The notes under the pieces were generated by a model. The model was not told where the DNA came from, ran no database searches, and saw only the letters and a list, made by a program, of their open reading frames with translations. The position numbers and the translations under genes are program-made. This document shows, one piece after another, positions 4,163 through 44,587 of a stretch of 51,972 bases of DNA. The stretch is from Candidatus Pacearchaeota archaeon (lineage in GTDB: Archaea; Nanobdellota; Nanobdellia; Pacearchaeales; GW2011-AR1). The stretch is from positions 1 through 51,972 of the forward strand of contig JAGLQB010000001.1 in NCBI GenBank assembly GCA_023137045.1. Direction: 5' to 3'. Positions within the stretch are counted from its first letter, which is position 1, and every line of letters starts with the position of its first letter.

Positions 4163-5230
4163 ATGATTGAACGAAAAGGTGCAAAAAGTGGTTCTGATAA
4201 GAAAAAGTCTTTTTTTATTCTTAAGTGTTTTTTTATTCTTTTATTTGTTTTTTTAATTGGACTTGTTTGTGTTTTTTTTGTTATGGATATTTTTTCTCAA
4301 AAGAGTTTTATTTGCGGAGATAATACTACTAATGGAAATTGTTCTATAAATAAACCTTATTTTTGTGTAAATGGAACTTTATTGGAAGATGCTTTTGTTT
4401 GTGGTTGTCCAGAGATTCTTAATGAAGAAAAAGGTTTATGTGTTTCAGATTATCATAAGGATCCTAAAAATATTCAATTGAAATATATTTTAAGAGGAGA
4501 AAACAAATCTTTAGATTTTGTTGTTTATGGGGGGATGGTGGAATATTTTTCTACGCTTTCAAAAGTGATTTATTATCAAGAAGGAGAAAGTCCTTCTAGG
4601 AGGGATTTTAAAATTAAAAATATAAACGAAGAGTTACAAAGAGAATTTCTTTTGCCTCTGGTTGTGAAAATACAAAATTTGGCGAAGAATAAAGAAGACC
4701 AAGTAAGGATTGCTGTTAGTTTGGTTCAAAATATTCCTTATGGAAAATCTAATGGTTTTTTTAATTTTGGTTCTAACAAATTGAATTCTTCTAGATACCC
4801 TTATGAAGTTCTTTGGGATTTAAAAGGGGTTTGTGAAGAGAAATCTGAATTAATGGCTTTTTTATTAAAGGAATTTGGGTACGGAGTTGTTTTGTTTTAT
4901 TATCCTGTGGAGAATCATGAGGCAGTTGGAATTAAATGTCCTCTTGAGCATAGTTTAAATGGAACTGGTTATTGTTTTATTGAATCAACAGGACTTTCAA
5001 TTATTTCTGATAATGAAAGACATTATTGGGATTTAGGCAGGCTTTCTCCTGATCCAGAGATGTTTGTAATTTCTGAGGGAGATACTTTGAGTAAGAATAT
5101 GGAAGAGTATGGAGATGCAGATACTTTGACTAAATTTATTAAGATAATCGAAGAGTCTGGAGGACTTAATGTTTTTCAACATGAGAAGTTTGTAGATTTA
5201 AAAGAAAAGTATGGTCTTAAAAATCTTTAA
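4163..5230 (+). CDS. membrane-anchored Cys-rich protein with a transglutaminase-like Cys-His-acid core
   Basis: N-terminal hydrophobic anchor (FFILKCFFILLFVFLIGLVCVFFV) and a Cys-rich module. The core is GVCEEKSELMAFLLKEFGY ... NHEAVGI ... FIESTG. Paralogous in layout to 28766-30043. Confidence 0.6.
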   Translation: MIERKGAKSGSDKKKSFFILKCFFILLFVFLIGLVCVFFVMDIFSQKSFICGDNTTNGNCSINKPYFCVNGTLLEDAFVCGCPEILNEEKGLCVSDYHKDPKNIQLKYILRGENKSLDFVVYGGMVEYFSTLSKVIYYQEGESPSRRDFKIKNINEELQREFLLPLVVKIQNLAKNKEDQVRIAVSLVQNIPYGKSNGFFNFGSNKLNSSRYPYEVLWDLKGVCEEKSELMAFLLKEFGYGVVLFYYPVENHEAVGIKCPLEHSLNGTGYCFIESTGLSIISDNERHYWDLGRLSPDPEMFVISEGDTLSKNMEEYGDADTLTKFIKIIEESGGLNVFQHEKFVDLKEKYGLKNL

Positions 5231-22784: not shown

Positions 22785-24056
22785 ATGGAAAGAAAATATA
22801 TCAGAGAAGTAAAAGCAGGAGAATCTGTTTTTTTGCAGGGCTGGATTTATGAATTGAGGATTCTTTCTAAAATGGCTTTTATTTTGTTAAGGGATTCTTC
22901 TGGAATGATTCAATGTATTATTAAAGATAAGGAACTCATGAAAAAAATTTCTGAATTAACATTGGAATCAGTAGTTGAAATTTATGGGAAAGTTAAAAAA
23001 GCAAATGTGAAAGCAGAATTTGCTAGAGATGATTTGGAGATAGAAGTAACTGACTGGACTTTGATAAGTAAGGCAGATAAACTTCCTATCCACTTGAATG
23101 AAAAAACAACCACAACTTCATTTTCTAAAAGATTAGATTATAGATTTTTGGATGTAAGAAAACCAAAAGTTTATGCTATTTTCAAAATTGAGTCAACAAT
23201 AATGCAGGCATATCGGGAGTTCATGATAAATGAAGGTGCTATGGAAGCAGTTTTCCCTTCGATAATTAGTGCAAGTTCTGAGGGAGGCACAGAATTATAC
23301 GCATTGAAATATTTTGAAAAAAAGGCATTTTTGAGTCAAAGTTGTCAGTTATATAAACAAATGCTTGTTTGTTCGGCTGAAAAAGTTTTTACAATTTTTA
23401 CTGTTTGGAGAGCTGAGAAACATAATACATCTCGGCATTTAAATGAGGCAAGACAATTAGATTTTGAAATGGCTTTTGCCGACGAATTTACAGTGATGGA
23501 TATAATGGCAAAGGCAGTGCAATACATAATCAAAAAAGTTATGGAAAAAAATAAAGAAGAGTTAGAATTATTGGGTGTAAAATTAAAAGTTCCCAAAGTG
23601 AAATATTTAACTTTTGAAGAAGCTAATAAGATTTTAAAAAAGAATAACATTAAAACAGAAACTAAAGATATAACTTTGGAGGGTGAAAAAAAGTTTGGAG
23701 AACTTTTTTTGGATACAATTGTTTTTGTCCATGACTGGCCGATAAAGGGAAAGCCATTTTATATTATGCCAAAAGGAGATGGGTTATCGCATGGGTTTGA
23801 TGCAATTTACAAAGGAATGGAAATAACTTCTGGCGGTCAAAGAGTTCATATTCCAGAAATTTTAGAAAAACAATTAAGAGAAAGAGACCTTGACCCTAAA
23901 AATTTTAAATCATATATTGACAGTTTTAGATTTGGTGCACCTCCTCATGCAGGTTGGGGACTTGGTCTTGAAAGGCTGACTATGTTAATTCTTGGAATCT
24001 CAAATATTCGTGAGGTTACATTGTTTCCAAGAGATAGGGAGAGATTAACCCCATGA
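22785..24056 (+). CDS. aspS: aspartyl-tRNA synthetase, archaeal type
   Basis: N-terminal OB domain and class IIb motifs, with GAPPHAGWGLGLERL and the C-terminal FPRDRERLTP. Confidence 0.9.
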   Translation: MERKYIREVKAGESVFLQGWIYELRILSKMAFILLRDSSGMIQCIIKDKELMKKISELTLESVVEIYGKVKKANVKAEFARDDLEIEVTDWTLISKADKLPIHLNEKTTTTSFSKRLDYRFLDVRKPKVYAIFKIESTIMQAYREFMINEGAMEAVFPSIISASSEGGTELYALKYFEKKAFLSQSCQLYKQMLVCSAEKVFTIFTVWRAEKHNTSRHLNEARQLDFEMAFADEFTVMDIMAKAVQYIIKKVMEKNKEELELLGVKLKVPKVKYLTFEEANKILKKNNIKTETKDITLEGEKKFGELFLDTIVFVHDWPIKGKPFYIMPKGDGLSHGFDAIYKGMEITSGGQRVHIPEILEKQLRERDLDPKNFKSYIDSFRFGAPPHAGWGLGLERLTMLILGISNIREVTLFPRDRERLTP

Positions 24057-25345
24057 AATTTATATCAATCAATGAAGCTATGAAAAAAGGAAGAGGCCAA
24101 GTGGCTGTGCGTGGTTGGGTGTTTAGAGAAAGAGGTTCAAATAAATTTAAGTTTCTTATTTTAAGAGATGTTACAAACACGATTCAATGTATTTTGCCCC
24201 ATGAGAAGTTTGAAAAACAATGGGGAGAGATTGATAAAATTCAAGTGGAAACTTCTGTAGAAATTTTTGGGACAATAAAAAAAGATAGTCGTGCTCCTAC
24301 AGGTTATGAAATTCAAGTTAGTAAAATAAATATAATTGGTCTTTCTGATAAGTTTCCCATTAATAAAAGTTTAAATGAAGAATTGCTTGGAGATAGAAGA
24401 CATCTTTGGTTAAGGAGTCGGAAGATGATTTCAATTATGAAAATTAGGAGCACTGTTACAGGTGCTTTACATGAGTATTTTAGGAGCAAGGGATTTTATG
24501 AATTTCAAAGTCCAGTTATTATTCCCGGTGGTGCTGAAGAAGGACCAACTATGTTTGAAATTAATTATTTTAAGAAAAAAATGTATCTGGCACAGACATG
24601 GCAACTTTATGCAGAATCTGCGATTTATTCTTTAGAAAAAATTTATTGTATTGCACCAAGTTTTAGGGCGGAAAAATCAAAAACTTCTCGTCATTTGACT
24701 GAGTATTGGCATACAGAAATGGAGATTGCGTGGGCTAATTTGGATGAGATTATGGATTATGCAGAGGAAATGACTAAGTATGTTTTAAAAAAAGTTTTAG
24801 AGAAAAATAAAGAAGAATTAGAATTTTTGGGAAGAGATATTAAAAAGTTGGGACCGGCATTGAAAAAGAAATTCCCCCGTGTTACATATGATGAAGTGTT
24901 GAAAATTTTAAAGGATAAGAAAAAGATGAAGGTTTCTTGGGGGAAGGATTTAAGGACAATTGAAGAAGAGAAGTTTATGGAATTGTATGACACGCCTGTA
25001 TTTGTAACTAATTATCCAAAAGAGGTAATGGCTTTTTACAAACCAAGAGACCCTAAAAATCCTAAAACTGCAAGATGTTTTGATATGTTGGGACCTGAAG
25101 CAAATGGAGAATTAATTGGTGGAAGTGAAAGAGATATTAATATAGAAGAACTAAAAAAATCTTTGAAATCTAAAGGAGAAAAATTAGAAGATTATTCGCA
25201 TTATTTTGATATTCATTCATACGGAGCTGTGCCTCATGGTGGCTATGGCTTAGGAACAGAAAGATTGATAAAATGGATTTGTGGATTAGATACTATTAAG
25301 GACGCAATTGCATTCCCAAGAACAATGACGAGAACAAGTCCTTAA
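24053..25345 (+). CDS. asnS: asparaginyl-tRNA synthetase
   Basis: SFRAEKSKTSRHLTEYWH, GGSERD, GAVPHGGYGLGTERL and FPRTMTRTSP. It overlaps aspS by 4 nt (ATGA). Confidence 0.9.
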   Translation: MKFISINEAMKKGRGQVAVRGWVFRERGSNKFKFLILRDVTNTIQCILPHEKFEKQWGEIDKIQVETSVEIFGTIKKDSRAPTGYEIQVSKINIIGLSDKFPINKSLNEELLGDRRHLWLRSRKMISIMKIRSTVTGALHEYFRSKGFYEFQSPVIIPGGAEEGPTMFEINYFKKKMYLAQTWQLYAESAIYSLEKIYCIAPSFRAEKSKTSRHLTEYWHTEMEIAWANLDEIMDYAEEMTKYVLKKVLEKNKEELEFLGRDIKKLGPALKKKFPRVTYDEVLKILKDKKKMKVSWGKDLRTIEEEKFMELYDTPVFVTNYPKEVMAFYKPRDPKNPKTARCFDMLGPEANGELIGGSERDINIEELKKSLKSKGEKLEDYSHYFDIHSYGAVPHGGYGLGTERLIKWICGLDTIKDAIAFPRTMTRTSP

Positions 25346-26034: not shown

Positions 26035-26652
26035 ATGCCTAGAGATATTTTTCTTCAAAGAAAAGAAGATGTGCTGTCTAAAAAAGATAAATCTTCAAAG
26101 GCAAGACAAAGTCTTTTATTGAATCGTCCAAGCGTGGTCAATCCAAAGCAAAGTTGGGATAAAAAAATTAGTGATTTATGTATGAAGATAAATTCTTTGG
26201 ATAATTATTATACAACTTCTTCATGTTCTGGAAGAATTGTTTTGATGGTGAATCAAGATAAAAAAGAAAGTGATTTGTTTTTCAATGTTTATCATGATTT
26301 GATTTCCTTTAATCAGATTAAGAAAGATTTAGAAGTTATATCTAAAAAAAATAAAAAATCAGTTAAGTTCAAATTAGAACCTTGTGCTTTGCATGTTGCT
26401 TGTAGAACATTGGAGGATGCCCAGAATTTTTATAATAATGTTAAATTGGCTGGGTGGAAAAAGTTCGGGTTAATTTCTTTTAAGCATAGATTTATTGTAG
26501 AATTGAATAGTACTGAAAGATTAGAGTTCCCGATTATTAATTCTGGAAAGATTCTTGTGGACGACGAATTTTTGAAAATAATTGTTGATGAAAGTAATAA
26601 GAAACTGAAAAAAAGTTGGATGAAAATTGAGAAATTGAGCAAATTAATTTAA
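26035..26652 (+). CDS. taw3: tRNA wybutosine/wyosine-synthesising protein 3 (TYW3/Taw3-like methyltransferase)
   Basis: YYTTSSCSGRIVLM signature and a size typical of the family. Confidence 0.75.
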   Translation: MPRDIFLQRKEDVLSKKDKSSKARQSLLLNRPSVVNPKQSWDKKISDLCMKINSLDNYYTTSSCSGRIVLMVNQDKKESDLFFNVYHDLISFNQIKKDLEVISKKNKKSVKFKLEPCALHVACRTLEDAQNFYNNVKLAGWKKFGLISFKHRFIVELNSTERLEFPIINSGKILVDDEFLKIIVDESNKKLKKSWMKIEKLSKLI

Positions 26653-26810
26653 GATTTCTTCTTACTCTTGATAATCCCTAATCTTAATCTAATTGCCTCA
26701 GAAATAAATTCTGCTCTAGAACGATAACCTTGTTTTGTCTTTTTAACATATTCATCTATCTTTTTTGCTAAATCTTCTGTTATTGAAATATTAACATATC
26801 TAACTCTCAT
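26649..26810 (-). CDS. ribbon-helix-helix (CopG/MetJ-like) DNA-binding protein, 53 aa
   Basis: Below the ORF-track size cut-off. Reverse translation gives MRVRYVNISITEDLAKKIDEYVKKTKQGYRSRAEFISEAIRLRLGIIKSKKKS. This shows the beta-strand/helix/helix pattern with the typical RSEFI-like segment. It is divergent from the 26868 operon. Confidence 0.6.
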   Translation of the reverse strand: MRVRYVNISITEDLAKKIDEYVKKTKQGYRSRAEFISEAIRLRLGIIKSKKKS

Positions 26811-26814
26811 TTTG

Positions 26815-26836
26815 TTTCATTTACAGGTAAACGAAA
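26815..26836. promoter_or_regulatory. imperfect palindrome (operator candidate) in a divergent promoter region
   Basis: TTTCATTTAC-AG-GTAAACGAAA, with 9 of 10 positions complementary. It lies between the RHH gene start (26810) and the operon start (26868). Confidence 0.35.
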
Positions 26837-26867
26837 GCTTTATTAATTATTTTTCACGCATAGGTAA

Positions 26868-27095
26868 ATGATAGAAAGTAAACAAGCAAAAGGTGGAGCT
26901 GCCGTCTTTATCATAATTTTATTAATCTTATTGGGAATAGGAGCATATATTATTGTTCAAAGTGGAGCATTAGAAAAAGCAATAGACCCTTGTGAGAGGG
27001 AATTTCAAGAATGTAATCATGCTTGTGGAACTGGAATACTAAGCAGTATTTGTAAGGAAAAATGTTCTTATGATTATCGGAGGTGTAAGGAGTAA
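26868..27095 (+). CDS. small membrane-anchored Cys-rich protein
   Basis: 75 aa. One TM helix (AAVFIIILLILLGIGAYIIV) is followed by a segment with 7 Cys (CEREFQECNHACGTGILSSICKEKCSYDYRRC). First gene of a tight operon. Confidence 0.6.
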   Translation: MIESKQAKGGAAVFIIILLILLGIGAYIIVQSGALEKAIDPCEREFQECNHACGTGILSSICKEKCSYDYRRCKE

Positions 27096-27097
27096 AA

Positions 27098-27337
27098 ATG
27101 ACAAAGAAGAAAAAAGACCCTTTAAAAATAATAGGAATGGCCATAATTGTTATAAGTGCTATTATTTTATTTAGTGCTTTCCCCTTAATTCAACAAACAG
27201 TCTTTAATTTTGGTCCTCTAAAAACAGATATTTCTCCAATAAGTGCCACAAGACTTACTATAGGTATCGTTGGAATTTTTATGGGTCTTGTAGTATATTT
27301 TGGAAAAGAGGGACTTAAAATTTTTATGAAAAAATAA
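27098..27337 (+). CDS. small two-TM membrane protein
   Basis: 79 aa with an MTKKKK basic start and two hydrophobic helices. It begins 2 nt after the preceding stop. Confidence 0.55.
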   Translation: MTKKKKDPLKIIGMAIIVISAIILFSAFPLIQQTVFNFGPLKTDISPISATRLTIGIVGIFMGLVVYFGKEGLKIFMKK

Positions 27338-27338
27338 G

Positions 27339-28274
27339 ATGGCAAAGAAGAAAAATAATAATTTATGGTTTGTTCTTGGAGGAATAATTATTGCTGTTTT
27401 GATTATTTGGATTATTGCTGCCAATGTTAATAATGATGTTATTTGCAATGCTCCTCATATTAAAGTTGGTAATTCTTGTTGTTTAGATGAAAATTCTAAC
27501 GGAATTTGTGATGGTGATGAAGAACCAAAAAAGCTACAAACATATTGTGGAGATGGGATTTGTCAGTCTGATGAAGATTATAATTCTTGTTCGGATGATT
27601 GTGAACCCTCTCCTTCCAAAATGGTGGGAATAAGAGCCTTTGATTATGATAAAGATGAAAAAAGAATCACAATACTTCAAATAGAAGATCCTAATCATTA
27701 TCCTGATTGGACACTTAATGCAAAAGGTTATGGAAGTGATGGGAACTTGAAATTTGAAAAAGATGTACAGATGGATTGTTATGGATTCTATTCAGATTAT
27801 TATTGTTCTGGAGTATGTACTGATTGCAGGGTTTCCGATATACCTTATCTTGAGGGAGGGACTTTAAGCATCAAGGCTTTATCTGGAGATGCAACTGTCC
27901 AAGCTATTGGGGATTATTCTTATTCAACATTTGATTCAGAAATCTCTTTTGATGTAGAATTTAATTCTTATGACGGAGATGAGGATGAATTTATTTATGA
28001 GATTACAAATACGGGGAAGAGAATAATTATTGTTGATAGCATAGTTGGAATTTTGTTCATAGATGAATGTGGGGATGATAATTGGCAAGGAGGAGATTGG
28101 GTTGCAAGAGGATATTTAGATGTTTATGGTTCAGAAGATGAGATTATAAGCCCTAGTGAAACCGTAAAAGCTAGAGGGCTAGCTTTGGGTTCTGTATATG
28201 ATATCAGAACATTCTGTACTAAATTTGAATATAAAGATAATATAATTAAAAAATTCGTCTTTGAAGTTATTTAA
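27339..28274 (+). CDS. membrane-anchored Cys-rich extracellular protein
   Basis: MAKKKNNN start plus a TM anchor. It contains CCLDENSNGICDGDEEP and YCGDGICQSDEDYNSCSDDCEP modules, then an acidic beta-rich domain. Confidence 0.65.
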   Translation: MAKKKNNNLWFVLGGIIIAVLIIWIIAANVNNDVICNAPHIKVGNSCCLDENSNGICDGDEEPKKLQTYCGDGICQSDEDYNSCSDDCEPSPSKMVGIRAFDYDKDEKRITILQIEDPNHYPDWTLNAKGYGSDGNLKFEKDVQMDCYGFYSDYYCSGVCTDCRVSDIPYLEGGTLSIKALSGDATVQAIGDYSYSTFDSEISFDVEFNSYDGDEDEFIYEITNTGKRIIIVDSIVGILFIDECGDDNWQGGDWVARGYLDVYGSEDEIISPSETVKARGLALGSVYDIRTFCTKFEYKDNIIKKFVFEVI

Positions 28275-28275
28275 A

Positions 28276-28764
28276 ATGACTAAAAAGAAAAATTTAGGAT
28301 ATATTGTGGGAGGGGTTGTTATTGGTATCTTGCTCATTGTGGTAGTTGTAATTCAAGTTCAAAATAAACAAAAACAGGCAGAACTTGAAAAAGAATTACA
28401 AAGAATACAAGAAGAAAAAGAGTTTTGCGATAGTTTAGAAATTAGTATAAAACCATTTGATATAACTTCTTATGGATATGGAATAGCAACTGCTGGAGTA
28501 AATTATTGTATTGTATCAAATAAAAATACTGCTGTCAAATCTATAATAATTTTAAAGAACGGATTAATGGATGAAAAAGATATAGTATTGCAAAAAGGAA
28601 GTTGTATGATACAGGGAATAAATTATTGGGCAGGATATTCTGGAAGCGGTTATCATGGCGGGGTGAGTTGTGACGATGTTGCAAGTATCGAAATTATTTC
28701 AGATATTTGTCCACAAGTAAAAGACATAGTTACGGATATGAGTGAAATAACTTGTGGAATTTAA
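28276..28764 (+). CDS. membrane-anchored extracellular protein
   Basis: MTKKKN start plus a TM anchor, a short coiled coil and a Cys-containing globular part. The ATG at 28276 lies 1 nt after the preceding stop. Confidence 0.6.
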   Translation: MTKKKNLGYIVGGVVIGILLIVVVVIQVQNKQKQAELEKELQRIQEEKEFCDSLEISIKPFDITSYGYGIATAGVNYCIVSNKNTAVKSIIILKNGLMDEKDIVLQKGSCMIQGINYWAGYSGSGYHGGVSCDDVASIEIISDICPQVKDIVTDMSEITCGI

Positions 28765-28765
28765 A

Positions 28766-30043
28766 ATGGCAAAAAAATCCAAAAATAAGGATTTCAAAAA
28801 ATATCTTAATTTTATTATTCCTGCTATGATTGTTATTCTTTCGGTTATTTTATTTTCTAGTTATCAAAATAATTCTTCTTCTATAACAAGAGGAGAAGAA
28901 GGAGAAAAATCTTCTTTGAGTTTATTTGAAGAAGATAATTCTTGTAAATATAATAAAGGAGAAAATTGTTTAAATGCTCCTTCTAAATGTGTTTGTAAAA
29001 ATAATCAAATTTGTTCCCCTGAAAGAATAAAGTCGGACAATTTAGGATGTTATACAATTGTTTGTGGAGATAGTTATAAAGATGAAGGTGAAACTAGTGA
29101 AACTTGTTGCATAGATGCAGGCTGTTCTAATGGTTTAGTATGTGATGCAAATTTAAATAAATGTGTTAAACCAGAATGCCCTTTTGATTGTTGTATTAAT
29201 GATTTAAAATATCAAAATAAATTTTGTTCACAATATTATACTTGTGACGGCCATCAACATTCTTGCGAACCTGATGACAGCGATAATGATGCTTTTCCCG
29301 ATTATTTAGAAATAGAAATGGGAACAGATAGGTTTGATTCTGATACAGATGGAGATAGTGTTTTAGATGGATATGATAATCATCCTCTTCATGAATATTT
29401 ACCACGAATTTATAGTTATGATTGGCGTTATGGAAAAGAATGGTTAATTTTTACAAAGAAATTTGAATTTGATATAAGCGTTAGTGAAGATGTCGTTTCT
29501 TCTTATGAAAAGATGCCAAAAGATAAACTAATTAGTAGAGAAGATATTCAATTAAAAGAGGTTGCCCAAATAATGGAACAATTAGCAAATGCAGAAGGGT
29601 ATAATGATGCAGATAAATTAATGATGGTTATCTCATTCTCAAGATCATTTAGTTATGATTATGCCAAAAGAGATTTTGATAAACCTCTTCCTGATTGGGC
29701 AAATTTTCCTATGGAAACCATTGTTAAGGAAGAAGGGCTTTGTGCAGATAGTGCAGTTATGGCAACAGCATTATTAAGGGAAATGGGCTATGATACTTAT
29801 TATTTATCTGGTCCTTGTTATGATTATTCTTCTTATCATGCAATTGTGGGTATTGCTCTTGTAAATGGAATTACTTTAGATGGCTCTGAGCGTTATGCAA
29901 CTCACAACGGAAAAAAGTATTATTATGTAGATGCGACTTCATCAGATTATGGGGGTAATTTATTTTATTCAACAACTTCCAAAGATGATTTTGGAACTAC
30001 TTTTTGTCCAATGAATGAATTTATAGTTAGAGATAATTACTAA
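28766..30043 (+). CDS. membrane-anchored Cys-rich protein with Asp-rich (thrombospondin type 3-like) repeats and a transglutaminase-like core
   Basis: MAKKSKNK start plus a TM anchor, and many Cys. It contains DSDNDAFPDYLEIEMGTDRFDSDTDGDSVLDGYD. The core is GLCADSAVMATALLREMGY ... YHAIVGI ... YYYVDAT (Cys-His-Asp). Confidence 0.65.
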   Translation: MAKKSKNKDFKKYLNFIIPAMIVILSVILFSSYQNNSSSITRGEEGEKSSLSLFEEDNSCKYNKGENCLNAPSKCVCKNNQICSPERIKSDNLGCYTIVCGDSYKDEGETSETCCIDAGCSNGLVCDANLNKCVKPECPFDCCINDLKYQNKFCSQYYTCDGHQHSCEPDDSDNDAFPDYLEIEMGTDRFDSDTDGDSVLDGYDNHPLHEYLPRIYSYDWRYGKEWLIFTKKFEFDISVSEDVVSSYEKMPKDKLISREDIQLKEVAQIMEQLANAEGYNDADKLMMVISFSRSFSYDYAKRDFDKPLPDWANFPMETIVKEEGLCADSAVMATALLREMGYDTYYLSGPCYDYSSYHAIVGIALVNGITLDGSERYATHNGKKYYYVDATSSDYGGNLFYSTTSKDDFGTTFCPMNEFIVRDNY

Positions 30044-30243
30044 TTCTCTTATTAATTTAAGACAGAAAGTTATTCATGTTAGTTCTTTATCATTTTTTAA
30101 ATAGAGTCTCTAAGATAAAAACTTTTAAAAATAAAAGACACCTCACTTTTTAATATTAATTCAAACATCACATAGATCAAATTAATTTTAACTAATGGGG
30201 CATCTCTTTCTTTACAATAGCTAGAAATGTATGAAATATATAA

Positions 30244-30321
30244 ACTTTTCGTAGAAAAGTGCTAAACAATTTAGAAGAAGTAATCATAGATTACTTCATT
30301 CAACCATTTCAATTGGTTGAA
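30244..30321 (+). promoter_or_regulatory. three consecutive perfect stem-loops in the ftsZ upstream region
   Basis: ACTTTTC-GTA-GAAAAGT (30244-30260), GAAGTAATC-ATA-GATTACTTC (30277-30297) and TTCAACCA-TTTCAAT-TGGTTGAA (30299-30321). A GGAGG ribosome-binding site follows at about 30340. Confidence 0.3.
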
Positions 30322-30354
30322 GTTTTGAAATAACTGAAAGGAGGTTAAAAAAAA

Positions 30355-32710: not shown

Positions 32711-32828
32711 CGTCCCCGGGAGGACTCGAACCTCCGACCTATCGGTTTCTGTGATTTCAAGATATAGGATGAGTAAATCTTGATTTACACTTAACAGCCG
32801 ATCGCTCTACCAACTGAGCCACAGGGAC
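32711..32828 (-). tRNA. tRNA-Asn (anticodon GTT) with a 45-nt intron at the canonical 37/38 position
   Basis: The minus strand reads GTCCCTG TG GCTC AGTTGGTA GAGC G ATCGG CTGTTA[45-nt intron]A CCGAT AGGTC GGAGG TTCGAGT CCTCC CGGGGAC G. The intron contains a TCAAGAT/ATCTTGA hairpin and an ACAG that can pair with the CTGT of the anticodon loop. Confidence 0.9.
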
Positions 32829-37674: not shown

Positions 37675-39693
37675 TTACATCCTTCCAACATAACCTCTTC
37701 TTGGTTTAAAAATCTCACCATGTGAATTTAATTTGTTTATTGCTTCATCAATTTCATCTTTAGTCAATTTTCCCTCAAGTTCTTTTTCAATTTCTTCAAT
37801 AGGAATCATTTTACCTAAACTACTTTCCAATTTGATAATTGTATCTCTAACTGCAAATATTTTATTTCTTTGTGATGTCATCATTCCAGTTGTGGCTTTG
37901 TCGATGTCAAATGTTTTTGATTCATAATCATAACCTACTTGCATTAAATAATATTTCATTAATTCTATTGAGATTTTCGCATCCTCTACTGTGACTTCGT
38001 TACTGAGTCTTAATTTTGCTGAAGCTTCAGACATTCTGATAAGGGCTTGCAATTGCCTTGCAGAAATTGGAATTGGTCTTAATGCACTTTCAGATGATAC
38101 TGGTTTGTTTCTCAAATTTACATAAAAATCTTTTATTTCTGTTACTGCTCCTTGGCTTAATGTTGGTTTGATTCTTTGTTTTGCATAGGCAACATATTTC
38201 CTAAAAATTTCTCTTGGGATTAGCATTGTTTCTCCTTTTTTTATGTGTTCATGAAGGACATGCATGGCAATTTTTTCATCTTTCTCTTTATCTGGAATAT
38301 CTCTTAATGTAAATATAACATCAAATCTGTTGATAAGTGTCGGTGGAAGGTCGATTTGTTGTGCTATTGATTGATAGGGGTCAAATCTCCCGAATTTAGG
38401 ATTGGCTGCTGCCAGAACAGAAGTTTCGGCTCTTAGTGTGGCTTGAACATTTGCTTTGCTTATGGTTATTGTTTGTTGCTCCATTGCTTCATGCATGGCA
38501 CTTCTGTCGCTGGAGTCCATTTTTTCTAATTCATCTATACAAACAAGTCCTTTGTTTGCCAGAACCATTGCTCCTGCTTCTAAGCTCCAACCTCTTAGAT
38601 ATTCATCCCTTACAACAGTTGCAGTTAATCCTGCCCCTGATGCAGATTTTCCCACCACATATCTTCCCTTAGGAGAAATTTCTGCCATAAAACCTAAGGT
38701 AACACTTTTAGCAACTCCTGGATCTCCCATCAATAAAATATGAATGTCCCCCCTACTTTTTTGACCATCTGCGTGAACTTTTTGCACACCTCCGAACAAT
38801 TGTAAAACAAGGGATTTTTTTATTTCCTCATAACCCCAGATACTGGGAGTAATGCTTCTTGCTAAATTATTGAATATGTTTGGGTCTTGTGAAAGTTCAA
38901 GAATTTGTTTTTCATCTTCTTCGCTTATGTCTAATTCTTCAAAGGTTTCTTCCATGGGAATCACATTATTGGCCTCAATTGCTAACTCAAACCTTGTTGA
39001 AAGCCCCCCTGAATGCAATGGTACTGGAACTTCTTTTAATATGCCTATTATTTTTATCCTGCTTCCGGGAGTTGTTTTCTCTTCCATTTTTGGTTCAACT
39101 AAATCTTCTTTCACAAATACATTAATCCTTTTTGGTTGTTCTCCTCCAGATAATGATTCTGGTGATTCTTCTACAACAAGTCTTTGGGTGTCAACCATCT
39201 CTTTGCTTATTAATTTAAATCCCCCCCTCCTACCACAAGAACATCTTGAAGGTTCTCTAAACTTTTTCTCTATTTGCAACACTGCAATAATTGTACCACA
39301 ACTTGGGCATTCAAATTTTGCATTTACCACCTGTGGTCTTACATCTGATGCCTGTCTTATAATTCCTTCAATGACAATCATTTCATCTAAATGTTTTGAA
39401 CGAATATTCCTAACTTTGATTTCTTGGCTTTTTGAAAGATTCTGAAGTCTTATTCTCGCATTATTTATTAATCCAGATTCTTCAACTGCTAATTCCATAA
39501 GTCTTAATGTATCTTCTGGATGTGAAAGTATTTCTTCAGCAAGTATATGAGAAAATTCTGTCAATTGCATGAAATCAATGTAAATTACATTTGTTCCCTT
39601 TCTAATTGCTTCTCCTATCTGTTTTTTGTTGAAGTCAAAGAAATTTTTTGCTTCATTTACCAGGTCCTCGTTTTTTGGTTTCCCCTCTGTCAT
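37675..39693 (-). CDS. mcm: MCM replicative helicase
   Basis: Zinc motif CPSCG...CSCG, Walker A LLMGDPGVAKS, Walker B CIDELEKM, arginine finger NRFDVIF and a C-terminal WH domain. Confidence 0.95.
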   Translation of the reverse strand: MTEGKPKNEDLVNEAKNFFDFNKKQIGEAIRKGTNVIYIDFMQLTEFSHILAEEILSHPEDTLRLMELAVEESGLINNARIRLQNLSKSQEIKVRNIRSKHLDEMIVIEGIIRQASDVRPQVVNAKFECPSCGTIIAVLQIEKKFREPSRCSCGRRGGFKLISKEMVDTQRLVVEESPESLSGGEQPKRINVFVKEDLVEPKMEEKTTPGSRIKIIGILKEVPVPLHSGGLSTRFELAIEANNVIPMEETFEELDISEEDEKQILELSQDPNIFNNLARSITPSIWGYEEIKKSLVLQLFGGVQKVHADGQKSRGDIHILLMGDPGVAKSVTLGFMAEISPKGRYVVGKSASGAGLTATVVRDEYLRGWSLEAGAMVLANKGLVCIDELEKMDSSDRSAMHEAMEQQTITISKANVQATLRAETSVLAAANPKFGRFDPYQSIAQQIDLPPTLINRFDVIFTLRDIPDKEKDEKIAMHVLHEHIKKGETMLIPREIFRKYVAYAKQRIKPTLSQGAVTEIKDFYVNLRNKPVSSESALRPIPISARQLQALIRMSEASAKLRLSNEVTVEDAKISIELMKYYLMQVGYDYESKTFDIDKATTGMMTSQRNKIFAVRDTIIKLESSLGKMIPIEEIEKELEGKLTKDEIDEAINKLNSHGEIFKPRRGYVGRM

Positions 39694-39781: not shown

Positions 39782-39811
39782 TTATTTCTTGTAGTCATTC
39801 AAAGCAACTTT
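39782..39811 (-). repeat. copy A of the TBP gene 3' end (30 nt)
   Basis: ttatttcttgtagtcattcaaagcaacttt matches 40721-40750 at 26 of 30 positions (hand count). The minus strand reads KVALNDYKK-stop, against KVALKNYKK-stop in TBP. It overlaps the stop codon of the 39810-40631 gene. Confidence 0.6.
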
Positions 39812-40631
39812 AATTTTCTAAAACTTTAATTTTTTCTTTAAGCTCTTCTATTTGTTTTTGTTGTTCTTTTATTGCTTCAACTAACAAAGGAGTTAATGCT
39901 CCATAATCAATACTACTTGCAAATATGCCATCTGGTTCATAAACAACTATCTCAGGAACTATTTTGCCAACTTCTTCGGCAATCATTCCCATATCATATT
40001 TACCACCGTGTTCTTCATCCCAATTAAAATATACACCTTCTAGAGAAAGAATTTTGTCTAGTGCTCCATCAATTTGCATTATATTTTTTTTCCATCTTAT
40101 TGATGAACTCGCACAATAATTTGTTCCCGGACCAACTGCATCAAAATCACAACTTTCAGAACCACCATAACCTTTAACTCCTATGTTTTTAGTAGAATGA
40201 CCATAAACACCTACGGCATATCCAGAACTACCTCGAATCCCTCCAAAACTACTATAACCGTAAATTGCATAAGTAGAATCCCCAACATTACCAACACTTA
40301 ATTTTGATTCTGGACTATCTGTCCCAATTCCTATCTTTCCATCATTATAATAAATATCTGAACCACTTTGAGTCCATAAACCTGAACCTCCGCCAAAATC
40401 TCCCCCATCTATAGCTTCTTGTAATGTTTTTTCAGTACCTCCAACATTAACACTCACTTGGGTTGATTCATGATACCCTTTGCTTGTATCAATTCCTCCA
40501 GCCAAAGCATAAACTCCAACACTAATTATCATTAAAATCCCTATTGTTATAAAAGTGTAAAGCCACCTATTAGAAAAATTAATTTGAACTAGACCTACTT
40601 TAATGCCTCTTTTACATCTCTCTCTCTTCAT
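39810..40631 (-). CDS. membrane-anchored tail-fibre-like protein with a C-terminal intramolecular chaperone (peptidase S74-like) domain
   Basis: N-terminal TM helix and LWTQSGSDIYYNDGKIGIGTDSPESKLSV (a tail-fibre-like motif). Gly/Tyr/Ser-rich repeats follow. The C-terminus is SSSIRWKKNI...LSLEGVYFNW...MGMIAEEVGKIVPEIV...IDYGALTPLLVEAIKEQQKQIEELKEKI. Confidence 0.7.
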   Translation of the reverse strand: MKRERCKRGIKVGLVQINFSNRWLYTFITIGILMIISVGVYALAGGIDTSKGYHESTQVSVNVGGTEKTLQEAIDGGDFGGGSGLWTQSGSDIYYNDGKIGIGTDSPESKLSVGNVGDSTYAIYGYSSFGGIRGSSGYAVGVYGHSTKNIGVKGYGGSESCDFDAVGPGTNYCASSSIRWKKNIMQIDGALDKILSLEGVYFNWDEEHGGKYDMGMIAEEVGKIVPEIVVYEPDGIFASSIDYGALTPLLVEAIKEQQKQIEELKEKIKVLEN

Positions 40632-44462: not shown

Positions 44463-44587
44463 GCCCCTGTAGTCTAGAGGCCAAGGATACAGCCCTTTCA
44501 AAGTAAAGTGCTTGCACTTTTCATTACTCCAGTTTCTTTGGAGATTGAAGTAAGGCTGTGACCCGAGTTCGAATCTCGGCGGGGGCG
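44463..44587 (+). tRNA. tRNA-Glu (anticodon TTC) with an intron of about 52 nt at position 37/38
   Basis: GCCCCTG TA GTCT AGAGGCCAA GGAT A CAGCC CTTTCA[intron]A GGCTG TGAC CCGAG TTCGAAT CTCGG CGGGGGC G. The intron contains AAGTG-CTTG-CACTT and CTCCA-GTTTCTT-TGGAG hairpins. Confidence 0.9.

What the first reader, a model, noticed from the sequence alone, without database searches (positions are those of the whole stretch)
26649..30043. Five-gene operon of membrane-anchored Cys-rich surface proteins ending in a transglutaminase-like protein, with a divergent RHH regulator and palindromic operator
The genes at 26868, 27098, 27339, 28276 and 28766 are separated by 1-2 nt. Four of them begin with a basic M[TA]KK... 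segment followed by one hydrophobic helix, which reads as a signal anchor. The ectodomains are Cys-rich (CEREFQECNHAC..., YCGDGICQSDEDYNSCSDDCEP, and many Cys in the last protein). The last protein combines Asp-rich calcium-binding-type repeats (DSDNDAFPDY...DSDTDGDSVLDGYD) with a Cys-His-Asp transglutaminase-like core. A 53-aa ribbon-helix-helix gene not in the ORF track (26649-26810) is transcribed divergently. The 57-bp gap contains the imperfect palindrome TTTCATTTAC-AG-GTAAACGAAA. Together this looks like a regulated, multi-subunit cell-surface module. In an episymbiotic DPANN-type archaeon, an attachment, host-interaction or envelope-remodelling role is a plausible but unproven guess. 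None of the four upstream proteins carries a domain I can name.
Basis: partly seen in the sequence, partly recalled or inferred. Interest (0 to 1): 0.75.

Follow-up and report, generated by a model that had tools for sequence, protein, structure and literature searches.

The report
Regulated surface-protein operon with transglutaminase-fold enzyme
A tiny symbiotic-type archaeon (Pacearchaeota) carries a tightly packed, repressor-controlled operon for five membrane-anchored outer-surface proteins ending in a calcium-binding, protease-like enzyme; relatives keep the enzyme but swap its partner proteins, so it looks like a changeable cell-surface module whose function is still unknown.

Summary
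All six ORFs, the 1-2 nt gene spacing, the N-terminal anchors, the Cys-rich ectodomains, the Asp-rich repeats with a Cys-His-Asp core, the RHH gene and the palindrome are at the stated coordinates.

The window is a Ca. Pacearchaeota (DPANN) contig. g5 passes Pfam's cut-off for DUF553, an archaeal transglutaminase-like family. Its nearest solved relative is LapG, the Ca-dependent adhesin-releasing protease.

The five-gene order is not conserved. What recurs is g5 abutted by one to four small anchored Cys-rich genes. Most partners share a near-identical anchor, MAKKKNNNLWYI(L/I)GG, on non-homologous ectodomains. Five or six of about 13 informative loci lie next to tyrosine integrases or Prim-Pol genes; the window copy sits among housekeeping genes.

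g3 carries a widespread, undescribed EF-hand-like Cys module (582 clusters) and two predicted Ig-like domains.

The RHH has at least 90 homologue clusters. In 4 of 5 independent contexts it faces surface-protein genes across a conserved ~60-bp region holding a shared TATA box and two TTACCTRT boxes.

Best reading: an RHH-repressed, modular, sometimes mobile surface module whose enzyme processes or cross-links its partners or the envelope. The biochemistry is inferred, not shown.

The parts
26649..26810 (-). Ribbon-helix-helix (CopG/Arc/MetJ type) DNA-binding protein, 53 aa. Its stop overlaps the TYW3 stop by 4 nt (convergent genes).
   Evidence: Pfam RHH_1 E 8.7e-6, above cut-off. PHROG 38461 E 4e-12. 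90 homologue clusters at 63-91% identity, the full-length ones 63-88%; those that carry a source name are called Pacearchaeota, Nanoarchaeota or 'archaeon'.
26815..26836 (.). It lies between the shared TATA and the RHH start, over the inferred RHH transcription start, and directly upstream of the TATA as seen from g1.
   Evidence: 9/10 complementary. The pattern T(T/C)TC-N3-TAC-CY-RTA-N3-GARR is kept upstream of RHH homologues in L086, L087 and L091. L087 has TCTC...GAGA in place of TTTC...GAAA.
26839..26849 (.). TTTATTAATTA: inferred shared TATA box of a bidirectional archaeal promoter. Purine-rich BRE-like runs flank it on both sides (CGAAAG at 26832-26837; rc GTGAAAA at 26851-26857).
   Evidence: ATTAATAAA is nearly invariant in five independent RHH loci. 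Its centre is about 24 nt from the g1 ATG and about 34 nt from the RHH ATG, which fits leaderless or near-leaderless transcripts (inference from archaeal promoter geometry).
26851..26873 (.). Box A, TTTTCACGCATAGGTAAATGATA (rc TATCATTTACCTATGCGTGAAAA). A second TTACCTRT box plus the RHH-side BRE-like run. It overlaps the g1 start codon.
   Evidence: Direct repeat of the box B region at 72% identity, 37 nt apart. It is the best conserved block upstream of RHH homologues, including L091, where it does not overlap any start codon. Two of the three TTACCTRT matches in the window lie in this spacer.
26868..27095 (+). g1: 75-aa anchored mini-protein with a six-Cys ectodomain, DPCE..C.H.CGEG.L..CKEKC......C.
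   Evidence: TM helix at 12-30, 6 Cys. 40 homologue clusters; five Cys are invariant and the sixth (C53) nearly so; some homologues have a lipobox instead of the anchor. Homologues lie next to g5 in L007 and opposite the RHH in L086.
27098..27337 (+). g2: 79-aa two-helix membrane hairpin with no Cys. An AGGAG Shine-Dalgarno motif lies 9 nt upstream.
   Evidence: Hydrophobic helices at about 11-29 and 48-66. One homologue (46% identity) at the head of the L005/L006 cassette. SD motif seen.
27339..28274 (+). g3: anchor MAKKKNNNLWFVLGG, then the CC module (C36..C57, CNAPHIKVGNSCCLDENSNGICDGDE, with an EF-hand-like DxNxNGxxDxxE loop), then a CGDGIC..C..DC module, then two predicted Ig-like beta-sandwich domains (about 95-311).
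   Evidence: Exhaustive HMMER search: 582 clusters match, nearly all through residues 1-65 only, and about 5 over the full length. Motif conservation. AF2 pLDDT about 80-90 for residues 100-311. Foldseek hits to Fab, GH2 Ig domains and TG2 beta-barrels at probability 1.0 but low TM-score. No Pfam or PDB sequence hit.
28276..28764 (+). g4: anchor MTKKKNLGYIVGG, then a charged QKQAELEKELQ segment, then a 6-Cys ectodomain. This is a second recurrent class of g5 partner.
   Evidence: Its N-terminal part resembles the g5-adjacent genes of L009, L043/L060 and L047. No family hit.
28766..30043 (+). g5: N-terminal anchor, a Cys-rich stalk (21 Cys), thrombospondin-type-3-like Asp repeats (D171-D204) and a DUF553 transglutaminase-fold core with C326/H358/D389.
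   Evidence: Pfam. 22-sequence alignment. PDB profile search: LapG 4fgo E 1.6e-5 and 4u65. AF2 core pLDDT about 85-95. Foldseek: 3isr putative cysteine protease, LapG, transglutaminases, CPR-C4.
30090..30099 (+). TCATTTTTTA: a T-run about 50 nt after the g5 stop, a possible archaeal oligo-T terminator. 311 nt of non-coding DNA follow before ftsZ.
   Evidence: Read from the sequence only. Function inferred.

Best explanation
This is an RHH-repressed operon of a Pacearchaeota archaeon. It displays membrane-tethered, disulfide-rich, Ca-binding proteins on the outer face of the membrane, together with a tethered transglutaminase-fold (papain-like) cysteine enzyme, g5.

Shown:
- The gene structure and the anchors.
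- g5 belongs to Pfam DUF553 and has an intact Cys-His-Asp triad and thrombospondin-type-3-like Asp repeats.
- g5 is translationally abutted by small anchored Cys-rich partners in relatives.
- Most partners share one conserved anchor but have unrelated ectodomains.
- The RHH and a roughly 60-bp bidirectional promoter region are conserved opposite surface-protein genes.

Inferred:
1. RHH dimers bind two TTACCTRT boxes that flank a single shared TATA. Each box covers one gene's transcription start and the other gene's BRE, so one repressor shuts off both its own gene and the operon. Both transcripts are leaderless or nearly so.
2. g1-g5 are made from one mRNA and inserted N-in/C-out.
3. g5 acts in a Ca-dependent way as a protease of the LapG type. 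It most likely cuts or matures the co-encoded anchored partners (g3, g4) near the membrane, which would control which ectodomains stay on or leave the surface. The conserved anchor would serve as the docking or recognition element.
4. Because partners are exchanged between close relatives and the unit often rides on integrase/Prim-Pol islands, the module is a fast-changing surface determinant. It could serve contact with a host or partner cell, or evasion of viruses.
For: Gene anatomy.

Enzyme identity: DUF553 above the curated cut-off. Invariant G324, C326, D328, H358 and the Asp ladder. The DAT/DPT motif at D389. LapG is the best solved relative by sequence profile and among the best by predicted fold.

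Outside location: lipobox variants of g5 (P0014, P0024), g1 (P0307, P0309) and many CC-module proteins. The CC module precedes trypsin, SNase and DsbA domains.

Partner pattern: 13 of 16 loci have a gene abutting g5. 13 of the 18 loci examined have an anchored partner gene abutting g5 (gap -4 to 10 nt); in L003 the nearest anchored gene is 39 nt away, and in L010, L054 and L059 none was found (L054 and L059 show little or no upstream sequence). The anchor differs by synonymous changes at a rate similar to g5 (71-78% against 79-83% nucleotide identity), so it is kept at the protein level. Ectodomains are not mutually homologous.

Regulation: RHH_1. RHH homologues face a g1 homologue plus an anchored partner (L086), a TSP3+TGase g5-like protein (L088, E 5e-23), or a Cys-rich membrane protein plus a 1616-aa S8 subtilase (L091). 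The upstream region has 30 invariant columns across 5 loci, and L087 shows compensatory TCTC/GAGA.

Mobility: Pfam-confirmed integrases within 8 kb of g5 in L003, L007, L012, L040 and L047, and Prim-Pol in L007 and L040.
Against:
- g5 does not hit Pfam Peptidase_C93 (the LapG family). It has GLCAD where LapG and the Thermoplasmatota homologues have GDCED, so LapG-type Ca control of the active site may not apply.
- The transglutaminase fold equally allows transamidation. A review text states this for DUF553 (PMC10318531).
- There is no LapD-like partner and no type-1-secreted adhesin.
- The RHH is absent from every other g5 locus examined. Four of those loci instead carry a divergent 88-90-aa gene upstream, read as winged-helix by eye; Pfam has no hit for any of them.
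- One RHH locus (L087) faces a cytoplasmic-looking GIY-YIG-like gene.
- The palindrome alone is only about P 0.02-0.04.
- Promoter elements and transcription starts are inferred from spacing, not mapped.
Confidence: 0.55

Rival explanations
1. g5 is a true transglutaminase (a cross-linker) rather than a protease. It would stitch the co-encoded Cys-rich anchored proteins to each other or to the S-layer by isopeptide bonds and so build a stabilised surface coat.
For: Foldseek also matches the model to bona fide transglutaminases (4xz7, factor XIII, TG2, TglA). A review describes DUF553 proteins as catalysing transfer onto peptidyl glutamine (PMC10318531). Exported archaeal transglutaminase-like proteins are the current candidates for pseudomurein Glu-Lys cross-linking (PMC11915815). 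Having several co-encoded surface proteins fits a substrate set.
Against: The best sequence relative with a solved structure is a protease, LapG. Transglut_core scores below its curated cut-off. Most studied prokaryotic members of the transglutaminase-like superfamily are hydrolases (background knowledge; Makarova et al. 1999 as summarised in PMC10318531).
Confidence: 0.2
2. g5 acts on another cell's envelope. It would be a tethered lytic or remodelling peptidase, like the PeiW/PeiP pseudomurein endoisopeptidases, that opens the host S-layer or wall at the contact site, while g3 and g4 act as adhesins that hold the two cells together.
For: DPANN archaea are thought to live attached to hosts (background knowledge). 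g3 has tandem Ig-like domains, which are typical of adhesins. The partner ectodomains turn over quickly between relatives whose g5 is 73-83% identical, as expected for host-range determinants. RHH homologues also control a giant S8 subtilase surface protein.
Against: No host is known and no cell-wall-binding repeat was detected. g5 is strongly conserved while its supposed targets would differ between hosts. The strict abutment of g5 with partners that share one anchor argues for action in cis on those partners.
Confidence: 0.17
3. The cassette is cargo of an integrated plasmid or virus (for example envelope or exclusion proteins), and the window copy is a domesticated remnant.
For: Integrases and Prim-Pol genes lie next to g5 in 5-6 of about 13 informative loci. 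The best family hit for the RHH is a PHROG. RHH loci L086-L088 contain transposase, resolvase, D5 primase and Holliday-junction endonuclease genes. GC3 of g5 is 2 SD below the window mean.
Against: The window has no integrase or Prim-Pol and no adjacent tRNA. Its flanks are housekeeping genes. L010 and L038 are also chromosomal. g1-g5 have no PHROG hit. No relative of g5 or the RHH was found in IMG/VR. Being carried on islands does not define a function.
Confidence: 0.08

Closest known systems
LapG, the bacterial transglutaminase-like cysteine proteinase (BTLCP, peptidase C93) of the Lap adhesin-release system (PDB 4fgo/4fgp/4fgq, 4u65; PMC3032545, PMC4359373)
   Same: Extracytoplasmic transglutaminase-fold Cys-His-Asp enzyme. 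It is the best solved relative by profile (E 1.6e-5) and a top fold match. It is associated with Ca. It is encoded next to the surface proteins it could act on. Thermoplasmatota homologues of g5 even keep LapG's GDCED active-site motif.
   Different: No Pfam Peptidase_C93 hit. g5 has GLCAD at the active site. g5 is itself membrane-anchored and carries a Cys-rich stalk and TSP3-like repeats. There is no LapD/c-di-GMP receptor, no type-1 secretion system and no giant RTX adhesin. Control is transcriptional, through an RHH. The organism is an archaeon with a single membrane.
Pfam DUF553 (PF04473), which is family 3 of the archaeal transglutaminase-like superfamily of Makarova, Aravind and Koonin 1999 (as summarised in PMC10318531)
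   Same: g5 scores above the curated cut-off (31.5 against 20.5 bits). 24 of its 29 listed homologues carry the same precomputed Pfam hit. The triad is conserved.
   Different: The family has no characterised member. The N-terminal anchor, Cys stalk and TSP3-like repeats, and the operon with anchor-tagged partners, are not part of the family definition.
TSP3-repeat plus transglutaminase-like proteins of Thermoplasmatota (P0025-P0029, for example AYK25_04350 of Thermoplasmatales archaeon SM1-50)
   Same: The same order of anchor, Asp-rich TSP3 repeats and transglutaminase-like core. 27-31% identity over about half of g5.
   Different: They have many more TSP3 repeats (Pfam PF18884 hits), no Cys-rich stalk, and a GDCED motif. 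Their gene neighbourhoods were not examined.
CopG/Arc/MetJ-type RHH autorepressors, and the archaeal RHH cell-cycle regulator aCcr1
   Same: A small protein (53 aa) made of the RHH domain only, with repeated or inverted boxes overlapping its own core promoter. It works like a classic RHH autorepressor (inference).
   Different: The aCcr1 model scores 14 bits against a cut-off of 60, so it is not a member. The arrangement proposed here, two boxes clamping one shared TATA of a divergent gene pair, is not documented for those proteins as far as I know.
PeiW/PeiP pseudomurein endoisopeptidases (peptidase C71)
   Same: Archaeal or virus-encoded extracellular transglutaminase-fold cysteine peptidases that act on the cell envelope (PMC10318531).
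   Different: No sequence-family hit. No pseudomurein-binding repeats. Pacearchaeota are not known to have pseudomurein (background knowledge).

Membership tests
Pfam DUF553 (PF04473) transglutaminase-like domain | Whole-protein score at or above the curated gathering cut-off | tested here: met
   31.5 bits against 20.5, E 1.4e-7, residues 265-364.
Transglutaminase-like / papain-like superfamily | Conserved Cys-His-Asp triad in the order Cys (start of a helix), His, Asp (DPT-type motif) | tested here: met
   C326 and H358 are invariant. D389 lies in DAT/DPT and is Glu in distant homologues. The core is modelled at pLDDT about 85-95 and matches transglutaminase-fold and LapG structures.
Pfam Transglut_core (PF01841) | Score at or above the gathering cut-off | tested here: not met
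   20.6 bits against 23. Some close homologues do carry the precomputed hit.
LapG / BTLCP (Peptidase_C93) | Match to the family model | tested here: not met
   No Peptidase_C93 hit at E<=1. There is only a profile-to-PDB match at E 1.6e-5 over 77 residues.
LapG / BTLCP (Peptidase_C93) | Acidic Ca-binding residues around the catalytic Cys (GDCED) | tested here: not met
   g5 and its close relatives have G-L-C-A-D. Only D328 is kept. The Thermoplasmatota homologues have GDCED.
LapG / BTLCP (Peptidase_C93) | Partner LapD-type receptor and a type-1-secreted adhesin substrate with a di-Ala site | tested here: not met
   No such genes in the operon or its flanks.
Thrombospondin type 3 / bacterial TSP3 repeat (PF18884) | DxDxDGxxDxxD-type Ca-binding repeats recognised by the family model | tested here: inconclusive
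   g5 itself gives no Pfam hit. P0018, a 66%-identical homologue, and four of the five distant homologues (P0025-P0027, P0029) do. D171/173/175/179 and D193/195/197/201/204 are invariant. There are weak PDB hits to lanmodulin and EF-hand proteins over residues 165-204.
RHH_1 (CopG family, PF01402) | Score at or above the gathering cut-off | tested here: met
   25.9 bits against 20.5, residues 6-44.
aCcr1 cell-cycle regulator (NF053762) | Score at or above the curated cut-off | tested here: not met
   14 bits against 60.
RHH antitoxin of a toxin-antitoxin pair (HicB/RelB/ParD type) | A co-directional adjacent toxin gene | tested here: not met
   The only neighbours are the convergent TYW3 gene and the divergent g1. 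The HicB-like hit is below cut-off.
Archaeal type IV pilin-like proteins (class III signal peptide) | A [KR]-[GA] cleavage site directly before the hydrophobic stretch | tested here: not met
   The anchors of g2-g5 (MTKKKKDPLKII.., MAKKKNNNLWFV.., MTKKKNLGYIV.., MAKKSKNKDFKKYLNF..) lack it. Only g1 has ..AKGGAAVF.., which is ambiguous (inspection output).
Virus or provirus structural module | Hits to viral protein families, or presence on viral contigs | tested here: not met
   No PHROG hit for g1-g5. No relatives in IMG/VR.

The most novel reading that the evidence does not exclude
A DPANN-specific 'tag-and-process' surface display system. A conserved N-terminal anchor (MAKKKNNNLWYILGG...) would mark interchangeable ectodomain proteins as clients of a co-encoded, membrane-tethered, Ca-binding transglutaminase-fold enzyme. 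This would be an archaeal, single-membrane counterpart of the LapG/LapA adhesin-release switch. The unit would be controlled by a lineage-wide RHH that clamps a shared TATA box, and it would move between genomes on integrase/Prim-Pol islands to change what the cell exposes to hosts or viruses.
Probability: 0.2. Interest if true: 0.8.

Novelty: new variant of a known kind. Interest (0 to 1): 0.55.

Why it matters
DPANN archaea depend on contact with other cells, yet almost nothing is known about the proteins on their surface or how they are controlled. This locus yields four concrete, testable items.
1. An enzyme of a known fold (DUF553, LapG-like) whose likely clients are encoded immediately upstream.
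2. A conserved anchor 'tag' on otherwise unrelated ectodomains, which suggests specific recognition within the membrane.
3. An undescribed, widespread EF-hand-like Cys module (582 clusters at 50% identity) that marks many surface proteins, apparently of DPANN type (the library carries no taxonomy), and could be used to catalogue them.
4. A compact bidirectional archaeal promoter with a lineage-wide RHH and two conserved boxes, ready for EMSA or footprinting.

If the enzyme does process tagged partners, it would be the first archaeal analogue of regulated adhesin release. If not, the locus is still a useful marker of variable, partly mobile surface islands in Pacearchaeota.

Tried and rejected
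- Viral origin. PHROGs gave nothing for g1-g5. IMG/VR scans with g5 and with the RHH found no relatives. A scan of IMG/VR for the conserved promoter block TACCTATGCGTGAAAA gave four chance matches in unrelated, higher-GC contigs with no RHH.
- aCcr1 cell-cycle regulator, which was tempting because ftsZ lies 300 nt downstream. It scores far below cut-off, and the RHH is not linked to ftsZ in most other loci.
- Toxin-antitoxin reading of the RHH. There is no toxin gene.
- Type IV pilin reading of the anchors. There is no class III cleavage motif.
- Recent recombination as the reason for the shared anchor. The anchor's nucleotide identity is no higher than that of g5 and the differences are synonymous, so the cause is protein-level constraint.
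- Insertion next to a tRNA, or an integrase in the window. None found.
- ncRNA in the g5-ftsZ spacer. Only a sub-threshold snoRNA-like hit.
- PDB sequence searches for g3, g4 and the RHH were uninformative.
- The top Foldseek hits of g3 to the TG2 beta-barrel domains are not given weight. TM-scores are about 0.2, and the same scores are obtained with antibodies and GH2 Ig domains.
- A regulon search for TTACCTRT in the window found no further promoter sites.
- Literature searches (DPANN + transglutaminase; DUF553; DPANN surface proteins) found no description of this cassette.

Full report
**1. Source and observation**

The window is part of a Candidatus Pacearchaeota (DPANN) metagenome-assembled contig. 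The last gene is NCBI KAR52_00175, found on ENA ERZ23498471 scaffold_144.

- RHH 26649-26810(-)
- g1 26868-27095
- g2 27098-27337
- g3 27339-28274
- g4 28276-28764
- g5 28766-30043

The gaps between g1-g5 are 2, 1, 1 and 1 nt.

All five products start with a strongly hydrophobic helix. Four start M[TA]KK. g2 has two helices and no Cys. The others have 6, 14, 6 and 21 Cys.

The flanks are housekeeping genes. Two class II aaRS genes, a metallo-beta-lactamase-fold gene and TYW3 lie upstream. ftsZ lies 311 nt downstream. The window contains no integrase, no Prim-Pol and no nearby tRNA.

**2. The enzyme, g5**

Pfam places g5 in DUF553 (31.5 bits, cut-off 20.5). Transglut_core falls just below its cut-off.

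In an alignment of 22 homologues, G324, C326, D328 and H358 are invariant, as are two Asp ladders (D171/173/175/179 and D193/195/197/201/204). D389 sits in a DAT/DPT motif and is Glu in the distant homologues. The Asp ladders correspond to the bacterial TSP3 repeat, which Pfam detects in one closer homologue and in the Thermoplasmatota homologues.

A profile of this alignment finds LapG as the best solved relative (4fgo, E 1.6e-5; also 4u65). LapG is the Ca-dependent periplasmic protease that releases the LapA adhesin (PMC3032545, PMC4359373).

The AlphaFold model has mean pLDDT 71, with the core at about 85-95. It matches a putative cysteine protease (3isr), LapG, true transglutaminases and the CPR-C4 protease.

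g5 is therefore a member of a known but uncharacterised archaeal transglutaminase-like family, family 3 of Makarova et al. 1999 according to PMC10318531.

It is not a LapG-family member. It gives no Peptidase_C93 hit, it has GLCAD instead of GDCED at the active site, and there is no LapD or type-1 secretion system.

Some homologues replace the anchor with a lipobox signal peptide (P0014 LSGC, P0024 FGC). This places the catalytic part outside the membrane.

**3. The partners**

*g3.* An exhaustive HMMER search with g3 found 582 clusters, but only about five cover its full length. Nearly all hits match residues 1-65.

That segment is an anchor or lipobox followed by a highly conserved module, CNxPYIxVGxSCCLDxNxNxICDxDE. 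C36, P39, Y40, G44, C47, C48, L49, D50, N54, C57, D58 and E61 are at least 90% conserved.

The DxNxNGxxDxxE part has the spacing of an EF-hand Ca loop. This rests on the sequence plus general knowledge of EF-hands.

The module has no Pfam model. It occurs one to five times per protein. In other proteins it precedes trypsin-like, SNase, DsbA and LTD domains. It therefore behaves as a general membrane-proximal module of secreted proteins.

The rest of g3 is predicted, at pLDDT about 80-90, as two Ig-like beta-sandwiches.

*g1.* It belongs to a 40-cluster family with an invariant six-Cys mini-domain. Some members are lipoproteins.

*g2.* It is a two-helix hairpin with one homologue among the loci examined.

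*g4.* It has the anchor, a charged segment and a 6-Cys domain. It has no family hit.

**4. Synteny**

I examined 18 loci encoding g5 relatives of 53-83% identity.

The five-gene order occurs only in the window and in near-identical contigs. What recurs is g5 abutted by one to four small anchored Cys-rich genes: 13 of the 18 loci examined have an anchored partner gene abutting g5 (gap -4 to 10 nt); in L003 the nearest anchored gene is 39 nt away, and in L010, L054 and L059 none was found (L054 and L059 show little or no upstream sequence).

Eleven of the 14 loci that have a partner carry at least one that starts with nearly the same anchor, MAKKKNNNLWYI(L/I)GG(V/I)(V/I)I. Their ectodomains (112-311 aa) are not homologous to one another. 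g3 and g4 are two such partners.

Even relatives whose g5 is 83% identical (L047, L049) carry different partners.

The anchor's nucleotide identity is 71-78%, against 79-83% for g5, and the differences are synonymous. The anchor is therefore maintained by selection on the protein, not by recent gene conversion.

A g1 homologue occurs next to g5 only in L007. A g2 homologue occurs only in L005/L006.

**5. Mobility**

Pfam-confirmed tyrosine integrases lie within 8 kb of g5 in L003/L055, L007/L050, L012, L040/L041 and L047. Prim-Pol genes accompany them in L007 and L040. L058 has an integrase-like contig end.

L010, L038 and the window are chromosomal, among housekeeping genes.

In L009 the cassette lies 0.6 kb from the homologue of the window's 4163-5230 gene and LeuRS. 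The unit has therefore moved within genomes.

GC3 of g5 is 0.136, 2 SD below the window mean. This is a weak signal.

No viral signal was found.

**6. The regulator**

The RHH passes Pfam RHH_1. It has 90 homologue clusters at 63-91% identity. Those that carry a source name are called Pacearchaeota, Nanoarchaeota or 'archaeon'. That is more clusters than were listed for g5's own clade (24 at 53% identity or more).

None of the other g5 loci has it. Four of them (L006, L012, L040, L042) carry a divergent 88-90-aa gene instead. I read these as winged-helix proteins by eye; Pfam has no hit for any of them.

Five independent RHH contexts show a pattern:

| Locus | Gene(s) facing the RHH |
|---|---|
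| Window | g1-g5 |
| L086 | g1 homologue (78%) plus a 200-aa anchored protein related to g5 partners of L038 and L042 |
| L088 | 328-aa anchored TSP3 + transglutaminase-like protein, homologous to g5 (E 5e-23; Transglut_core 21 bits) |
| L091 | 164-aa Cys-rich membrane protein plus a 1616-aa S8 subtilase |
| L087 | GIY-YIG-like gene inside a mobile element |

Four of the five contexts therefore pair the RHH with surface-protein genes.

**7. The promoter region**

The DNA upstream of these RHH genes is conserved although the facing genes differ. An alignment of five loci has 30 invariant columns. In RHH orientation the order is:
- TATCATTTACCTATGCGTGAAAA (box A plus a BRE-like run)
- ATTAATAAA (TATA)
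- T(T/C)TC-N3-TAC-CY-RTA-N3-GARR (box B)
- the RHH ATG

L087 has TCTC...GAGA where the others have TTTC...GAAR. That is a compensatory change which keeps the symmetry.

Boxes A and B share TTACCTRT in direct orientation, 37 nt apart.

In L091, box A does not overlap any start codon. It is therefore conserved as DNA, not as coding sequence.

In the window the TATA centre is about 24 nt from the g1 ATG and about 34 nt from the RHH ATG. I infer a single bidirectional promoter with leaderless or near-leaderless transcripts.

In this layout each box covers one gene's start site and the other gene's BRE. Bound RHH would repress both directions. This is an inference from spacing and from how RHH repressors and archaeal promoters generally work. 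It has not been tested.

**8. Interpretation**

The evidence supports a regulated, extracytoplasmic, Ca-binding, disulfide-rich surface module built around a transglutaminase-fold enzyme.

The system is modular: a conserved enzyme, client-like partners that share one anchor, and optional small subunits (g1, g2).

I favour a LapG-like proteolytic role on the co-encoded partners. The reasons are that LapG is the nearest solved relative, that g5 is strictly abutted by its partners, and that the partners share one anchor. Cross-linking, or action on a host envelope, remain real alternatives. The partner turnover and the integrase-linked islands suggest a fast-changing surface determinant.

Overall this is a new variant of a known kind, a transglutaminase-like surface enzyme encoded with its probable clients. 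The conserved anchor tag, the CC module and the RHH bidirectional promoter make it a good experimental entry point into DPANN surface biology. None of the biochemistry has been demonstrated.

Noticed in passing
window 27339-27530 (g3 residues 1-65) and proteins P0036-P0179: A short module, CNxPYIxVGxSCCLDxNxNxICDxDE, follows a TM anchor or lipobox in 582 protein clusters (50% identity level), in one to five copies. It has no Pfam model. It precedes trypsin-like, SNase, DsbA and LTD domains. It looks like an undescribed EF-hand-like, disulfide-locked stalk module of surface proteins, apparently of DPANN type; the library searched carries no taxonomy.
   Followed up: partly
window 4163-5230: A 355-aa anchored protein shares only the transglutaminase-like core with g5 (21% identity). 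It has no Pfam hit and no partner genes, and it lies after LeuRS and a GH130 gene. In L009 the g5 cassette lies 0.6 kb from the homologue of this gene and LeuRS.
   Followed up: partly
window 30274-30322: Two adjacent hairpin-type inverted repeats (AAGAAGTAATCA/TGATTACTTCAT and TTCAACCATTT/AATTGGTTGAA) lie 30-80 nt upstream of the ftsZ start (30355). ftsZ has a GGAGG Shine-Dalgarno motif. This may be a regulatory element of ftsZ.
   Followed up: no
window 32711-32828 (-) and 44463-44587 (+): Rfam tRNA matches of 118 and 125 nt that ARAGORN did not call. They are probably intron-containing tRNA genes.
   Followed up: no
window 39810-40631 (-), next to MCM at 37675-39693: The precomputed Pfam hit for this gene is Peptidase_S74, the intramolecular chaperone of phage tailspike and endosialidase proteins. 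That is an unexpected domain in this setting.
   Followed up: no
window 22785-24056 and 24053-25345: Two tandem, overlapping class II aaRS genes of the Asp/Lys/Asn type (tRNA-synt_2 plus an OB anticodon domain) follow GatB. They are probably an AspRS/AsnRS pair or a duplicated AspRS.
   Followed up: no
L040 3741-20210; L007 1-13305: Apparent integrated elements of about 15 kb in relatives. They carry two tyrosine integrases, a 692-777-aa Prim-Pol protein, small winged-helix genes, Holliday-junction endonuclease genes and the g5 cassette as cargo. Their boundaries were not determined.
   Followed up: partly
L091 1-3892: The same RHH and promoter block face a 164-aa Cys-rich two-TM protein and a 1616-aa S8 subtilase with Big_9 domains. 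This arrangement was present on all 24 contigs that were read.
   Followed up: partly
window 26649-30043: Third-position GC of the cassette genes (0.14-0.20) is at the low end of the window distribution (mean 0.20, SD 0.03). g5 is 2 SD below the mean.
   Followed up: yes
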